Shown: positions 452-3,675 of the stretch, one piece after another | How the letters are laid out: each line of letters begins with the position of its first letter | Position numbering within the stretch: position 1 is the stretch's first letter | IMG/VR virus record: IMGVR_UViG_3300014515_000027 | Length of the DNA: 8,834 bases | Direction: 5' to 3' (one strand) | Source: a virus | Lineage: Duplodnaviria > Heunggongvirae > Uroviricota > Caudoviricetes | Made by a program: the position numbers and the translations under genes | The notes under the pieces: model-generated | What the model was told of the DNA's origin: nothing | The model's input: the letters and a program-made list of their open reading frames with translations, nothing else | The model's database searches: none

Positions 452-640
452 TTATCCAGCCGGTGTTTCGTTATTCAGGTACAGCGATACTTTTTTTAGC
501 GGGAGGCATTCACCAGAAATTTTTTGCTCGTCTCTTGCCTGGAGGCAGGATTCTTTACTTGCATAAATTCCGGTAATCACATTCTGTGATTCACCCGTTA
601 TAAGAAAAACCGTCATCATCAGTGCAAATGCTGAAGTCAT
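452..640 (-). CDS. Small hypothetical protein (62 aa) with a short hydrophobic N-terminal segment
   Basis: ATG at 640 with GGAG about 7 nt upstream on the minus strand; 4-nt ATGA overlap with the preceding gene. N-terminus MTSAFALMMTVFLITG is hydrophobic. No recognisable family. Confidence 0.4.
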   Translation of the reverse strand: MTSAFALMMTVFLITGESQNVITGIYASKESCLQARDEQKISGECLPLKKVSLYLNNETPAG

Positions 641-825
641 TGACGTTCTCCGAAAATACCAAGTTCAAGAAGAGCAATTCGGGAAAGTATGGAATTATCA
701 TTGAGCAGATAAGGCTCATATTTCCTCATATTAATGGCATCTTCAGTAAACTCCCGGTTACTGAGCAGAACACCAATATCAAAACAACCTTCAGACGTAT
801 TAACGTTTGGTAATAACGTTTCCAT
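637..825 (-). CDS. Small hypothetical protein (62 aa), leftward operon
   Basis: ATG at 825 with GAGGA about 7 nt upstream on the minus strand. Its stop overlaps the start of the next gene as ATGA at 637-640, suggesting translational coupling. No recognisable family. Confidence 0.45.
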   Translation of the reverse strand: METLLPNVNTSEGCFDIGVLLSNREFTEDAINMRKYEPYLLNDNSILSRIALLELGIFGERQ

Positions 826-1396
826 TATCGCGTCCTCAACAATGAATTTTGTGATGCAGTGCCTGGTGCCTCCAGGTGACGTTAACCAGTTAACAATTAA
901 CGCCGGGTTAGTTGATGCTCGTTACGCCCGTAAAATACCGCCTTACTGCTTTAACTGTTCCGCGTGCGCATAGCCGCATTCACCGCATCACAAAATTCAC
1001 TTTAAAAAGGGCGGCAGAGCAGTCACGGAGTAAAACTGATACCGCCAAATGTCACCAGAAAATTGATAACAGAGGGCGTTGTAGCGGGGTTGTCACTTAA
1101 GCGTATGGTCAACCTGACAACCCGGTGCATTTTCTGGAGCAATGGAGGAAACCCCAGCCATACTTACCGCCGCGCCATTTCGCGGAGTGCCACAACCGGA
1201 AGCGCACGGTCGAACTAAATTTAACGACACCGTACAGAGAGACCAATTTCGCCGTGCGCTTTCGCGTTATGCCCTGACTTTTCAGGGACATATCCTTTCA
1301 GTAAGCTGTCAGTGCCGGATGCTCACCCGTGTCCGGCGCACGCACTCCACCTGACCCGTGGAGAACTCCTTAATTACCAACCCTCAGGAGGGTGAA

Positions 1397-1675
1397 ATGG
1401 ATAAAAAGCAAATTGAGGCCCTGCAATCTATTATTGAAGAACAAGATGAAGCTATCAGGATTCTTTCATATCGCACTGATATGATACTAAATATGCTTTC
1501 TGCATTAACGGCTGCGCTTGGTGGTACAAAAACAAACGTATACCGCGAAGTTGTTATTCAACAGATAGATAAATTTGAAAAAACCATACCAGGTATTAAT
1601 GCTCATCTTGCAGAACAAGAGAAAGACCATGCTCTTATGGCAATTTCTTCAGTAGCTCTCCCGAAAGTTGAGTAG
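1397..1675 (+). CDS. Hypothetical protein (92 aa), predicted coiled-coil/helical; rightward-oriented gene embedded in leftward-operon territory
   Basis: ATG at 1397 preceded by AGGAGGG (1386-1392). The track ORF begins at an upstream GTG (1358) that has no ribosome-binding site. AT-rich by eye. Its 3' end overlaps the convergent gene 1635..2036 by about 40 bp. Confidence 0.55.
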   Translation: MDKKQIEALQSIIEEQDEAIRILSYRTDMILNMLSALTAALGGTKTNVYREVVIQQIDKFEKTIPGINAHLAEQEKDHALMAISSVALPKVE

Positions 1676-2036
1676 TTTTAATTGTTGTTTTGAAATAATC
1701 ACTGCTTTCACATTTGAGTGATTTCATGGCAATCCAAATGCGGGCCTCTGTGCCTGCATTTGGTTCCAGTTGCTGTAGACGTTTTGCGTCTTCCAAAAGT
1801 AAGGCGATAATGTGTTTCAGCTTCTCATCATTTGCTTGATTCTTGTTTTCAGGCGAATTCTGTCCGCCGAATAGGCGCTTCTCTTCATACAGACCTATAA
1901 AGGCACGACGCACGTTACCGGATATAGTATCGATGGTTTCCTTTTCTACGGTACTCAGGTCAAGAGTCGCCAGTTGAGAGCGAACCACATTCGATGCCAT
2001 TTCCTGGAATGGTACTGGTAAATCTTTAAATTCCAT
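1635..2036 (-). CDS. Hypothetical protein (~133 aa), AT-rich accessory gene
   Basis: Internal ATG at 2036 has GAGG with a 6-nt spacer upstream (minus strand); the track start at 2048 has no ribosome-binding site. Product begins MEFKDLPVPFQEMASNVVRSQLATLD... with no family motif recognised. Sits 11 nt downstream of the stop of 2048..2281. Confidence 0.6.
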   Translation of the reverse strand: MEFKDLPVPFQEMASNVVRSQLATLDLSTVEKETIDTISGNVRRAFIGLYEEKRLFGGQNSPENKNQANDEKLKHIIALLLEDAKRLQQLEPNAGTEARIWIAMKSLKCESSDYFKTTIKTTQLSGELLKKLP

Positions 2037-2047
2037 CGTCAACCTCA

Positions 2048-2281
2048 TCAGTCAGTGTTTCTGGTTAACCAGCGACGCGCGCCAGCTTCAGTTTTAAACG
2101 TTTTGCTTCTGGTATACGTCATCGCGGTGAACGTACCGTCCTGGTTGGGGAACACGCCACATACCAGAGATTCGCTGTTGCCAAGATCGATAGTATCCAT
2201 GCTGACCTCATTTCCCCTTAACGCCGGGGTAGCGGAACAAAAACCTGCTGCATAGTTATTAAAGTTGAACCCTGCCGTCAT
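2048..2281 (-). CDS. Small hypothetical protein (77 aa from the ATG at 2281, or 50 aa from the ATG at 2200); first gene downstream of the putative left operator
   Basis: Two candidate starts, each with a GAGG ribosome-binding site on the minus strand (9-nt spacer for 2281, 5-nt spacer for 2200). Forms a two-gene leftward unit with 1635..2036. Confidence 0.45.
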   Translation of the reverse strand: MTAGFNFNNYAAGFCSATPALRGNEVSMDTIDLGNSESLVCGVFPNQDGTFTAMTYTRSKTFKTEAGARRWLTRNTD

Positions 2282-2385: not shown

Positions 2386-2424
2386 ATACCCATAGGTATT
2401 TAAAAAGTAAATACCCATGGGTAA
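2386..2424. promoter_or_regulatory. Putative left operator (OL-like): two TACC-N4-GGTA palindromes
   Basis: ATACC-CATA-GGTAT at 2386-2399 and the perfect palindrome TACCCATGGGTA at 2412-2423, centres about 25 bp apart, immediately beyond the 3' end of the repressor gene. Same half-site motif as the sites at 2904-2955. Confidence 0.45.
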
Positions 2425-2464: not shown

Positions 2465-2884
2465 CTATGATGCGTTTTGTGCTTTCTTTTTACGGATTTC
2501 TTCGTAGATCATATTGTAATACTGTTTTTTCTCTTCAAGAGTTTTTAATAATTTATCCGCTTCACTTTCTGGCAGTTCGTCTAAGAGATCTAAAAAAATA
2601 CGTTGTCGTGGCGTTAGAACCCTTGTTTCATAACTGGAGGCTGTGTTCGTTGATGATGAAACGATACCATCCATCCATCCCCGGGGTAACCCAAAGGACT
2701 CTTCGATAATCTCCACCATATCATCAGCGATCCGTTTTTTTCCCTTTTTCCCCTCTGGGTACAACATTCTTGATACATAAGAAGGCTCGCGCCCGATCTT
2801 TCTGGCCACGTTAACCGCTTTACCATCGCATTTCTCATCACGAATTTTGATGAGTTGCTGTCGTCTAAATTCATATTTGTCCAT
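2465..2884 (-). CDS. Prophage repressor, HTH DNA-binding protein without a LexA-like S24 peptidase domain (RacR-like)
   Basis: 139-aa ORF. Its N-terminal segment KAVNVARKIGREPSYVSRML looks like a helix-turn-helix; no peptidase-like C-terminal region. Divergent from the ydaS-like gene and flanked by operator palindromes. No Shine-Dalgarno before the ATG, but a TATTAT -10-like hexamer lies about 7 nt upstream, suggesting a leaderless transcript as for lambda cI. Confidence 0.8.
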   Translation of the reverse strand: MDKYEFRRQQLIKIRDEKCDGKAVNVARKIGREPSYVSRMLYPEGKKGKKRIADDMVEIIEESFGLPRGWMDGIVSSSTNTASSYETRVLTPRQRIFLDLLDELPESEADKLLKTLEEKKQYYNMIYEEIRKKKAQNAS

Positions 2885-2984: not shown

Positions 2985-3266
2985 ATGGAAGAATTAAGAA
3001 TATTTCTCAATTCTCTTTCGTCAGATGAACAGCGTATGTTTGCATGCGAGTGTGGTACCAGCATCGGTTATCTAAGAAAGGCATTGAGTAAAGGTCAAGT
3101 GTTAGGGGCATCGTTATGTGTCCTTATTGAGCGAGCCAGTAATGGTGAAGTTACACGTCAGCAACTAAGGCCTTTTGATTGGATGAATATTTGGCCCGAG
3201 CTGGAAGATACCAAAACGTTAACACAACCACTTTCTAGGAGCTTGATTCATGAAAATCAAGCATGA
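2985..3266 (+). CDS. ydaS: YdaS-like Cro-type HTH protein
   Basis: 93 aa with a strong AAGGAG ribosome-binding site. Motifs CGTSIGYLRKALS ... EVTRQQLRPFDW...WPE match my recollection of the YdaS/Cro-like family. First gene of the rightward operon, divergent from the repressor. Confidence 0.7.
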   Translation: MEELRIFLNSLSSDEQRMFACECGTSIGYLRKALSKGQVLGASLCVLIERASNGEVTRQQLRPFDWMNIWPELEDTKTLTQPLSRSLIHENQA

Positions 3267-3675
3267 ACACATCCGCATGGCGATGAATGCCTGGGCGCGT
3301 CCTGATGGCGAAAAAGTTCCAGCAGCTGGAATAACCCAGGCTTATTTTGAGTTGGGTATGACGTTCCCGGAACTGTATGACGACAGCCATCCGGAAGCCC
3401 TGGCTCGCAATACCCAGAAAATTTTCCGCTGGGTAGAGAAAGCCCCCCCTGATGCTGTTGAAAAAATGCAGGCTCTGTTACCGGCGATCGAAAAGGCGAT
3501 GCCGCCTTTGCTGGTGGCCCGTATGCGCAGCCACAGTTCTGAATATTACCGTGAGATCGTCGAACGGAGGGATCGGCTGGTGAAGGATGTCGATGATTTT
3601 GTTGCGTCAGCGGTTGTTTTGTATGACCAGATGAATCGCGGCGGCCCGGCAGGGAATGCTGTGGTGATGCACTAA
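3250..3675 (+). CDS. ydaT: YdaT-like protein (reported CII-equivalent; toxic when derepressed)
   Basis: 141 aa beginning MKIKHEHI..., as I recall for YdaT. Start overlaps the ydaS-like stop by 17 nt; AGGAG at 3237-3241. Confidence 0.7.
   Translation: MKIKHEHIRMAMNAWARPDGEKVPAAGITQAYFELGMTFPELYDDSHPEALARNTQKIFRWVEKAPPDAVEKMQALLPAIEKAMPPLLVARMRSHSSEYYREIVERRDRLVKDVDDFVASAVVLYDQMNRGGPAGNAVVMH

What the first reader, a model, noticed from the sequence alone, without database searches (positions are those of the whole stretch)
1397..2281. AT-rich three-gene cassette between the left operon and the repressor: candidate exclusion, defence or toxin-antitoxin cargo
Three small uncharacterised genes sit between the leftward early genes and the putative left operator. 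In lambdoid phages this is where exclusion systems such as rexAB and sieB are carried. Two of them (1397..1675 on plus, 1635..2036 on minus) are convergent and overlap by about 40 bp at their 3' ends, so their transcripts would be mutually antisense. A small gene (2048..2281) lies 11 nt upstream of the minus-strand gene, making a two-gene unit. I recognise no family for any of the three, and the region looks more AT-rich than the replication module. This is the most plausible site in the window for an undescribed system.
Basis: partly seen in the sequence, partly recalled or inferred. Interest (0 to 1): 0.72.

Follow-up and report, generated by a model that had tools for sequence, protein, structure and literature searches.

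The report
Leader-gated small gene in prophage sieB slot
The three genes are not one system: two are ordinary early-left-operon genes of an E. coli lambdoid prophage, and the third is a small protein of unknown function in the slot where prophage Rac carries sieB, preceded by an unannotated, pseudoknotted RNA leader that fronts at least nine unrelated small genes and occurs in over half of complete E. coli genomes.

Summary
The window is a lambdoid prophage integrated next to ompW in E. coli. All three ORFs exist, but they are not one cassette.

- **2048-2281(-)** is ydfA (DUF1391). Its real start is most likely 2200. It is the first gene of the dicBF-type left operon.
- **1635-2036(-)** is a mosaic early gene. 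It joins an N-module and a C-module that occur separately elsewhere.
- **1397-1675(+)** (ORF92) is a real protein gene (dN/dS 0.08-0.23) from a narrow enterobacterial family. It is predicted to form three helices and matches no known family or fold.

ORF92 lies antisense inside the left operon, between the DicF sRNA and the DUF1391 gene. Rac carries sieB in exactly that place. ORF92's convergent neighbour changes from prophage to prophage, so a cognate toxin-antitoxin pair is unlikely.

ORF92 is preceded by a promoter-like site and an 83-nt leader (1314-1396). The leader has two hairpins, an anti-SD helix and a covarying pseudoknot that together bury the ribosome-binding site. The same leader precedes at least nine unrelated small ORF families. 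It occurs in 3109 of 5426 complete E. coli genomes and has no Rfam match.

The function of ORF92 is untested. The position is right for exclusion cargo, but no homology supports that reading.

The parts
1279..1307 (+). Promoter-like site for the ORF92 unit: -35 TTTTCA (1279-1284), 17-nt spacer, -10 TAAGCT (1302-1307). Predicted start at about 1313-1315.
   Evidence: A -10-like hexamer ends 4-6 nt before hairpin 1 in most independent upstream contexts. The versions seen are TAAACT, TAAGCT, TAAAAT, TATTAT and TAACAT, several with TGn. This is a consensus-level inference only. The stricter scan did not list it.
1314..1396 (+). Structured 5' leader. H1 pairs 1314-1322 with 1329-1337. H2 pairs 1345-1350 with 1358-1363. 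The anti-SD helix H3 pairs 1366-1371 with 1385-1390 (SD AGGAGG at 1386-1391). A pseudoknot pairs the H1 loop 1323-1327 with the SD-AUG spacer 1391-1395.
   Evidence: Covariance model R1 scores the window leader at 98.7 bits and finds 50 copies in 52 loci. In the model alignment 89.7% of cells pair, against at most 47% when partners are slid, and 7 pairs change on both sides. The pseudoknot pairs in 97.3% of cells, with 2 doubly changed pairs. 40 of 44 distinct leaders are perfectly complementary there, in three covarying versions. The + strand folds with z = -2.2 and the - strand with z = -0.16. There is no Rfam match.
1397..1675 (+). ORF92: an acidic (pI 5.1) 92-aa protein predicted to form three helices. 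It is the cargo of the leader cassette and lies antisense to the left operon.
1635..2036 (-). ORF133: the second gene of the left (PL, dicBF-type) operon. It is a mosaic of an N-module (aa 1-~56), a low-complexity linker and a C-module (aa ~68-133). Its last 13 codons plus stop overlap the ORF92 3' end.
   Evidence: The two halves hit different PHROGs. The N-module is fused to other C-modules in P0109-P0123 and stands alone as 52 aa in L083. The C-module stands alone as 71 aa in Salmonella. In the AF2 model the N-module is a helical hairpin at pLDDT about 82 and the rest is below 55. It is unrelated to YdfC.
2048..2200 (-). ydfA homologue (DUF1391), the first gene of the left operon.
   Evidence: Pfam PF07151 scores 93.4 bits on residues 29-75 of the long reading. 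PGAP annotates 50 aa. K-12 ydfA and ydaF occupy the same position.
2387..2423 (.). Left operator pair (TACCCATAGGTA and TACCCATGGGTA) overlapping the inferred PL. The left operon is transcribed leftward from here.
   Evidence: Pattern count is 9 against 1.8 expected, with sites clustered at 2387, 2412, 2905, 2920 and 2944. The two sites form a 16-nt inverted repeat. The placement of PL itself is inferred.
1009..1060 (-). DicF sRNA, downstream in the same left operon, followed by dicB at 637-825(-). It marks the left edge of the slot.
   Evidence: Rfam RF00039 scores 77 bits, E 4e-16. Pfam DicB scores 125 bits.
2465..2884 (-). Prophage repressor (139 aa, no S24 peptidase domain, C-terminus DicA-like). 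It marks the right edge of the region.
   Evidence: It matches phrog_5736, transcriptional regulator, at E 6e-70. NCBIfam gives a partial DicA match.

Best explanation
**Two of the three genes are ordinary operon members.** ydfA (2048-2200) and ORF133 (1635-2036) belong to the repressor-controlled early-left operon. That operon runs PL/OL (about 2387-2423), ydfA, ORF133, a long untranslated stretch, DicF, dicB.

**ORF92 is a separate, rightward accessory unit (a moron) set antisense into that operon.** It sits in the slot where Rac carries sieB. Its parts are a weak sigma-70-type promoter (1279-1307), an 83-nt leader beginning with a 5'-terminal hairpin, and the 92-aa ORF.

**The leader locks the ribosome-binding site twice.** An upstream CUCCU pairs with the SD, and the loop of hairpin 1 pairs with the SD-AUG spacer as a pseudoknot. 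Translation is therefore held low or needs an unlocking event.

**The promoter and leader form a conserved 'socket'.** Recombination has placed at least nine unrelated small ORF families behind it.

**The 41-nt tail-to-tail overlap with ORF133 is a by-product.** The leftward gene simply reads into the conserved antisense of the ORF92 C-terminus until it meets a stop.

**Shown versus inferred.**
- Shown: gene identities, mosaicism, coding constraint, slot equivalence, leader structure with covariation, cargo diversity.
- Inferred: promoter use, independence from the repressor, expression in the lysogen.
- Weakest inference: that the soluble acidic three-helix product benefits the prophage by binding a phage or host protein (superinfection exclusion or host modulation). 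I put the exclusion or defence role itself at about 0.3.
For: **Operon and slot.**
- Rac has the same slot: kilS, then sieB(+), then ydaF (DUF1391), with a 4-nt tail overlap. The upstream flank shares the motif TGCGCYTTCGYGTTRTG.

**ORF92 is coding.**
- dN/dS is 0.08-0.23.
- There are 15 invariant columns across alleles of 26-98% identity.
- The length stays near 90 aa in all distant members.

**ORF92 is autonomous.**
- Homologues in L063 and L064 have their own + strand intrinsic terminator-like hairpins starting about 30 nt after the stop.
- In L064 there is no convergent coding partner and the gene sits beside an S24-type cI.
- The same cargo allele occurs with different repressor types.
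- No operator or LexA box lies near its promoter.

**Leader.** The U.G wobble at H1 pair 7-18 is present in 39 of 42 sequences, which favours the + strand RNA.

**Cargo diversity.**
- Nine families are listed.
- Profile comparison finds them unrelated.
- All are of unknown function.

**Spread.** The leader is in 3109 of 5426 complete E. coli genomes. ORF92 is in 127.
Against: - There are no expression data. The window's -10 (TAAGCT) matches only 3 of 6 consensus positions and was not listed by the stricter promoter scan.
- No + strand terminator follows ORF92 in the window.
- The leader persists without any ORF in Qin-type prophages, including K-12. It may therefore have a role of its own, or it may matter on the complementary left-operon transcript.
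- Most covarying sequences fall into three or four lineages, so the number of independent compensatory events is small.
- ORF92 matches no exclusion or defence protein by sequence or fold.
- ORF92 is absent from 50,697 deposited phage genomes.
- Allele A is always next to the same C-module in E. coli and Salmonella. Linkage is the simpler reading, but a functional tie is not excluded.
Confidence: 0.6

Rival explanations
1. **Cognate two-partner system.** ORF92 and the C-module of ORF133 form a toxin-antitoxin or effector-immunity pair. The convergent 3' overlap provides mutual antisense control.
For: - Allele A of ORF92 is next to the same C-module (LKHIIALLLEDAKRLQQLEPNAGTEARIWIA) in E. coli and, at 72% identity, in Salmonella. 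The 41-nt overlap is kept.
- A locked ribosome-binding site is typical of toxin mRNAs.
Against: - The 45%-identical homologues face an unrelated 171-191-aa HTH protein with the same 41-nt overlap.
- The L064 homologue has no convergent gene.
- The C-module lies next to three other cargo families (MAKFTVRI, MQKETELK and ORF92). The N-module alone lies next to a fourth.
- Alleles B and C share one neighbour module.
- Only the last ~11 residues of the neighbour are conserved, and those are the antisense of the ORF92 C-terminus.
- The genes are convergent, not co-transcribed.
- There are no TA or PADLOC hits.
Confidence: 0.08
2. **The unit works mainly as RNA.** Its promoter and leader produce a transcript antisense to the left operon. 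By transcriptional interference or RNase III-sensitive duplexes, this transcript limits leaky read-through from PL into the toxic dicF and dicB genes in lysogens. The ORFs behind it are passengers.
For: - The leader up to the anti-SD arm is retained with no ORF behind it in K-12 Qin and similar prophages. The covariance model scores these at 48-62 bits.
- It always lies antisense, just upstream of the sRNA and cell-division-inhibitor genes.
- DicF and DicB are toxic when expressed (PMC5069750).
Against: - ORF92 is under clear purifying selection.
- The SD, the spacer and the pseudoknot with it covary, which only makes sense for translation control.
- Several cargo families each keep intact ORFs.
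- The leader also occurs in contexts without DicF or dicB (L014-L016, L066).
Confidence: 0.15
3. **Infection-phase protein.** ORF92 and the other cargo are anti-defence or host-takeover factors, made from a repressor-independent promoter as soon as the phage genome enters. This would resemble variable anti-restriction or anti-CRISPR genes behind a conserved control region.
For: - The products are small, acidic, highly variable and unrelated, and sit behind one conserved regulatory region.
- The promoter carries no operator.
- From my own knowledge, untested here: lambda ral (anti-restriction) lies near sieB in the left operon.
Against: - The orientation opposes the strong early-left transcription that starts at infection, which would collide with it.
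- The doubly locked ribosome-binding site argues against rapid high expression.
- Rac sieB, in the same slot, is named a superinfection exclusion protein in the K-12 annotation.
- No anti-defence family was matched, though no dedicated library was available.
Confidence: 0.15

Closest known systems
sieB of prophage Rac (and of lambda and P22): superinfection exclusion gene embedded antisense in the early-left operon
   Same: The slot and orientation are the same: a rightward gene between the sRNA plus cell-division-inhibitor genes and the DUF1391 gene, tail-to-tail with the leftward neighbour. The upstream flank is partly homologous. PHROGs files SieB under 'moron, auxiliary metabolic gene and host takeover'.
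   Different: ORF92 has no SieB domain and no hydrophobic segments; GRAVY is -0.10. It is 92 aa, against 162. Rac sieB lacks the H1/H2/H3/pseudoknot leader, since model R1 finds nothing in L197.
Morons of lambdoid phages (an autonomous promoter-gene-terminator unit inserted between phage genes; Hendrix and colleagues' concept, cited from my own knowledge)
   Same: The unit has its own promoter-like site and deviant base composition. It shows presence/absence and allelic polymorphism at a fixed site. Homologues have their own terminators.
   Different: Here many unrelated cargo genes share one conserved, structured leader that occludes the ribosome-binding site. No terminator is seen in this window.
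[quoted passage not shown]
   Same: A conserved flank with a fixed position carries highly variable cargo across related prophages.
   Different: The cargo here are single small ORFs of 30-104 aa, and none is recognised by PADLOC. The conserved flank is a translated-gene leader RNA, not neighbouring core genes. No defence phenotype is known.
Translationally locked mRNAs such as hok (fold-back inhibition) and other type I toxin mRNAs
   Same: The SD is buried by long-range pairing within the 5' region, which implies an activation step. A real hok/sok locus is present elsewhere in this window.
   Different: The product is not a small hydrophobic peptide. No dedicated antisense sRNA gene was found. 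No Rfam family matches.
Lambda OOP RNA / cII convergent overlap (from my own knowledge)
   Same: Convergent transcripts overlap at the 3' end of an early gene by a few tens of nucleotides.
   Different: Here the antisense transcript encodes a conserved protein. The overlap length varies from a 0-nt gap to about 49 nt across cargo families, which argues for compaction rather than a tuned antisense device.

Membership tests
YdfA/YdaF, DUF1391 (PF07151), for the gene at 2048-2200 | Profile match above the Pfam gathering score | tested here: met
   93.4 bits against a cut-off of 27.3, profile positions 1-47 of 48.
YdfA/YdaF, DUF1391 (PF07151), for the gene at 2048-2200 | Promoter-proximal position in the repressor-controlled left operon: first gene after the operator (Qin, this window), second after ydaG in Rac | tested here: met
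   K-12 Qin has dicA then ydfA. Rac has racR, ydaG, ydaF. In the window, ydfA follows the OL sites.
SieB superinfection exclusion protein (PF14163), for ORF92 | Sequence membership in the SieB family | tested here: not met
   ORF92 has no Pfam hit at E <= 0.1. Rac SieB scores 109 bits in the same test.
SieB superinfection exclusion protein (PF14163), for ORF92 | Membrane protein of about 160-190 aa | tested here: not met
   ORF92 is 92 aa with GRAVY -0.10 and is predicted as three soluble helices.
SieB superinfection exclusion protein (PF14163), for ORF92 | Rightward gene inside the leftward early operon, next to the DUF1391 gene | tested here: met
   Compare with the window map.
SieB superinfection exclusion protein (PF14163), for ORF92 | Excludes or aborts superinfecting phage | not testable with these tools
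   This needs a plating assay.
Type II toxin-antitoxin pair (ORF92 + ORF133) | Two adjacent co-transcribed genes | tested here: not met
   The genes are convergent, on opposite strands.
Type II toxin-antitoxin pair (ORF92 + ORF133) | Partners co-inherited as a fixed pair | tested here: not met
   The neighbour differs in L014-L016 and L064. The C-module is found with other cargo.
Type II toxin-antitoxin pair (ORF92 + ORF133) | Match to a known toxin or antitoxin family | tested here: not met
   The only hit is a RelB-like match at E 0.014, 15.6 bits against a cut-off of 50. PADLOC and Pfam give none.
Known anti-phage defence systems (PADLOC-DB 2.0) | Any component model matched | tested here: not met
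   There are no significant hits for the three window proteins or for nine cargo proteins.
Moron (autonomous accessory transcription unit) | Own promoter | tested here: inconclusive
   A -10-like hexamer lies at a fixed distance before the leader in many independent contexts. The window version matches 3 of 6 positions, and there are no transcript data.
Moron (autonomous accessory transcription unit) | Own terminator | tested here: inconclusive
   A terminator follows the homologues in L063 and L064. None was found in the window.
Moron (autonomous accessory transcription unit) | Composition differs from flanks; present in some and absent in other related phages | tested here: met
   GC is 0.39-0.43 against 0.50-0.57. 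ORF92 is in 127 genomes and the leader in 3109 of 5426. ORF92 is absent from the Qin-type phage L002.
Any Rfam 15 RNA family (for the leader at 1314-1396) | Covariance-model match | tested here: not met
   There is no hit at E <= 1 in the whole window or at E <= 10 in 1230-1720, apart from an unrelated 14-bit match.

The most novel reading that the evidence does not exclude
The promoter and pseudoknotted leader form an undescribed cis-regulatory RNA 'socket' of enterobacterial prophages. It keeps a polymorphic set of small effector proteins translationally silent until a specific signal opens the ribosome-binding site. Candidate signals are infection by another phage, prophage induction, or a change in RNA turnover. 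ORF92 is one effector. An Edwardsiella version drives a Pro-rich peptide plus a 2-TM protein of about the size of SieB. The slot would then be a widespread and unrecognised hotspot of exclusion or phage-conflict genes, present in more than half of E. coli genomes.
Probability: 0.3. Interest if true: 0.78.

Novelty: new variant of a known kind. Interest (0 to 1): 0.6.

Why it matters
If the reading holds, a short un-annotated RNA element marks a previously unnoticed accessory-gene slot in lambdoid prophages. The element is in about 57% of complete E. coli genomes, in up to five copies, and K-12 Qin carries an empty copy.

The element gives a simple sequence handle, a covariance model, for harvesting small prophage proteins of unknown function that are probably involved in phage-phage or phage-host conflict. 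Its doubly locked ribosome-binding site is a concrete and easily mutated mechanism to test.

For the finding as written, the result is more sober. Two of the three genes are ordinary operon members. The third is a genuine orphan whose function is still unknown.

Tried and rejected
1. **Toxin-antitoxin or cognate-pair reading.** Rejected on neighbour variability.
2. **Antirepressor.** There is no LexA box. The same cargo allele occurs with S24 and non-S24 repressors.
3. **All cargo as one fast-evolving superfamily.** hhalign finds no relation between the ORF92 family, the 64-aa family and the 73-aa family. BLASTP finds none between alleles A and B, but bridging sequences P0152 and P0153 and the profile search do link A, A' and B.
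5. **ORF133.** The model is too poor beyond the N-module to search. PDB sequence search gives nothing. It is unrelated to YdfC.
6. **DicF pairing with the leader.** No better than shuffled sequences.
7. **The Edwardsiella 156-aa cargo as SieB.** There is no sequence similarity.
8. **Literature searches.** I searched for the dicBF operon, sieB and prophage hotspots. No description of this leader or of ORF92 turned up. One search was swamped by unrelated words. The library is incomplete, so absence is weak evidence.
9. **ORFs 1109-1291(-) and 1142-1354(+) in the conserved untranslated stretch.** I treated these as spurious and did not test this further. PGAP does not call them.
Full report
**Context**

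The window is identical to a prophage integrated beside ompW in E. coli SCU-172. Its map follows.

| Feature | Coordinates (strand) | Basis |
|---|---|---|
| DUF1482/ydfD-like gene | 452-640 (-) | |
| dicB | 637-825 (-) | Pfam 125 bits, |
| DicF sRNA | 1009-1060 (-) | Rfam 77 bits, |
| Conserved untranslated stretch | ~1061-1396 | |
| The three ORFs of the finding | 1397-2281 | |
| Operator pair | 2387-2423 | |
| Repressor, 139 aa, no S24 domain | 2465-2884 (-) | |
| Three more operators | 2905-2955 | |
| YdaS-like cro | 2985-3266 (+) | |
| YdaT-like gene | 3250-3675 (+) | |
| Replication genes, queH, hok/sok | beyond 3683 | |

This is the Qin/Rac type of lambdoid early region. [quoted passage not shown] It is repressed by DicA.

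**Checking the observation**

- All three ORFs are present.
- The convergent pair shares 41 nt.
- The small gene's stop lies 11 nt before the ATG at 2036.
- The stretch 1351-1950 has GC 0.39-0.43, against 0.50-0.57 in the replication module.
- One correction: the 2048-2281 ORF is ydfA (DUF1391, 93 bits). The domain starts at residue 29. PGAP aa. In L011 the upstream extension is closed by a stop. The gene is most likely 2048-2200.

**ORF133 (1635-2036, -)**

- Its two halves hit different PHROGs.
- The N-module (MEFKDLP...GLYEEK) is joined to a different C-module in many E. coli prophages. It stands alone as 52 aa in L083.
- The C-module (LKHIIALLLEDAKRLQQLEPNAGTEARIWIA...) is a stand-alone 71-aa gene in Salmonella. 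It is a 48-aa gene next to other cargo.
- AF2 gives a confident helical hairpin for the N-module only.
- It has no known family and is not YdfC.
- It is best described as a mosaic early-left-operon gene of unknown role.

**ORF92 (1397-1675, +)**

- Homologues fall into alleles A (window; Salmonella at 72%), A' (45%) and B (about 26%). More distant members also exist. All are 90-96 aa, with 15 invariant positions.
- Outside the overlap, dN/dS is 0.08-0.23. It is a real protein gene.
- The family is narrow: 21 clusters among 1.84 billion representatives.
- It is absent from 50,697 deposited phage genomes.
- It is present in 127 of 5426 complete E. coli genomes.
- AF2 predicts three helices at pLDDT 81.
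- PADLOC, Pfam and NCBIfam give nothing.

**Is it a pair with ORF133?**

The tail overlap recurs at 41, 32, 23 and 11 nt and other lengths, but the neighbour does not stay the same.
- A' homologues face a 171-191-aa HTH protein.
- The L064 homologue has no convergent gene and lies beside an S24 cI.
- Alleles B and C share one neighbour module.
- The ORF133 C-module lies next to three different cargo families.
- Only the neighbour's last ~11 residues (LSEELLKK..) are conserved. These are the antisense of ORF92's conserved C-terminus.

The overlap therefore looks like compaction, not a device.

**The slot**

In K-12 Rac the order is kilR, kilS sRNA, sieB(+), ydaF (DUF1391, -), ydaG, racR. sieB and ydaF overlap tail-to-tail by 4 nt. 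The window has dicB, DicF, ORF92(+), ORF133, ydfA (DUF1391), repressor. The flank upstream of sieB shares the motif TGCGCYTTCGYGTTRTG with the window. ORF92 thus occupies the sieB slot without being SieB.

**The leader**

The roughly 120 nt upstream of ORF92 are conserved from E. coli to Salmonella, Edwardsiella, Trabulsiella and Pluralibacter. The features are:
- a -10-like hexamer ending 4-6 nt before the first hairpin in many unrelated upstream contexts;
- H1, GCCGGAU...GUCCGGC, conserved in sequence, with a U.G wobble in 39 of 42 sequences;
- H2, with at least seven different compensating stems;
- H3, CUCC(A)U pairing with the SD, with a covarying A-U/U-A pair;
- a pseudoknot between the H1 loop and the SD-AUG spacer.

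The pseudoknot comes in three covarying versions: UUAUC/GAUAA, UUACC/GGUAA and UCACC/GGUGA. It is perfect in 40 of 44 distinct leaders and pairs in 97.3% of cells, with two doubly changed pairs about 72 nt apart.

The + strand folds better than shuffles (z = -2.2), and the - strand does not (z = -0.16). A covariance model finds 50 copies in 52 loci. Rfam has nothing. By megablast the element is in 3109 of 5426 complete E. coli genomes, in up to five places per genome, and the rows listed show no annotation.

**Cargo**

The same leader and start context (GGAGGRTRAAATG) precede at least nine families:
1. the ORF92 family;
2. a 73-aa family;
3. a 63-70-aa family;
4. a 59-61-aa family;
5. a 94-aa family with a sub-threshold GhoS-like match;
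6. a 69-aa family;
7. a 61-80-aa Cys-rich family (CxxC...C motif);
8. a 104-aa family;
9. Pro-rich 30-36-aa peptides.

In Edwardsiella the Pro-rich peptide is followed by a 156-aa protein with hydrophobic, TM-like stretches. All families are of unknown function. Profile comparison finds them unrelated.

In Qin-type prophages, K-12 included, the leader is kept up to the anti-SD arm and then abuts the end of ydfC, with no ORF.

**Interpretation**

The best-supported picture is an autonomous, rightward accessory unit whose translation is gated by a pseudoknotted leader. It sits in the sieB slot of a dicBF-type left operon. ydfA and ORF133 are ordinary members of that operon.

What ORF92 does is unknown. 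I favour a prophage-benefit role through protein binding, either exclusion or host modulation, at about 0.3. This rests on position, polymorphism and the locked ribosome-binding site.

The rivals are a cognate pair with ORF133 (0.08), a mainly RNA-level brake on dicF/dicB (0.15) and an infection-phase anti-defence role (0.15).

No expression or phenotype data exist, and the promoter is only a consensus-level call.

**Verdict**

The finding is real. It is partly mis-assembled, being one cargo gene and not three, and it is partly right about position.

Noticed in passing
window 7554-7729 (+), with hokD CDS at about 7724-7879: There is a complete hok/sok-type type I toxin-antitoxin locus: Rfam sok at 120 bits, E 9e-28, and PGAP annotates HokD in the identical genome.
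   Followed up: partly
window 6800-7486 (+): The prophage carries an epoxyqueuosine reductase gene (queH) between the replication genes and hok. It is a metabolic or tRNA-modification gene as phage cargo (PGAP annotation).
   Followed up: no
window 2387-2423 and 2905-2955: Five TACCN4GGTA operator-like sites flank a 139-aa repressor that has no S24 autocleavage domain. Induction presumably needs an antirepressor or another route. No LexA box is found anywhere in the window.
   Followed up: partly
window 1734-1763: A 12-bp inverted repeat (CCAAATGCGGGC / GCCTGCATTTGG) lies inside the ORF133 coding region, where it encodes the conserved NAGTEARIW motif. By my reading of the L003 sequence, the Salmonella copy keeps the pairing through G.U pairs on the + strand. 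It could be a 3' stem-loop for the ORF92 transcript.
   Followed up: no
L066 2651-2835 (-) and 2181-2651 (-); also L067, L070, L075, L088, L182: In Edwardsiella, Trabulsiella and others the same leader drives a Pro-rich 30-36-aa ORF (MLINQFGDLPKPTPDGQVPYRP...). In L066 this is followed 10 nt later by a 156-aa protein with hydrophobic, TM-like stretches (phrog_6315, unknown). That protein is about the size of SieB but is not similar to it in sequence.
   Followed up: partly
L196 3529-3631 (-) = E. coli K-12 MG1655 Qin, between ydfC and dicF: K-12 carries an 'empty' copy of the leader (promoter-like site, H1, H2, anti-SD arm) that abuts the ydfC stop. It has no annotation. It may give an antisense transcript to ydfC and the dicBF leader.
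   Followed up: partly
window 1255-1290; L197 4050-4075: Two elements overlap the -35-like site and are shared with E. coli and Salmonella relatives: the motif GCGCTTTCGYGTTRTG and a 16-bp palindrome CCCTGActttTCAGGG. The motif also lies upstream of Rac sieB. This is a possible regulator-binding site.
   Followed up: no
L058-L061 (viral contigs): Some copies of ORF92 are frameshifted to a 27-aa product, so the gene is decaying in part of the population.
   Followed up: no
L090, L096, L115 (viral contigs): One cargo family (94 aa, MAKFTVRIELRD...) has a sub-threshold match to the GhoS endoribonuclease/antitoxin fold: 19.2 bits against a cut-off of 21.
   Followed up: no
window 793-1011 (-) and 7854-7935 (+): There are sub-threshold Rfam matches to STnc100 (31 bits, between DicF and dicB) and to isrK (27 bits, downstream of hok).
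   Followed up: no
L014-L016, L063: The leader plus an ORF92 homologue also occurs in a Cox/integrase (P2-like) early region next to cpxP/cpxRA. The cassette therefore crosses phage lineages.
   Followed up: partly
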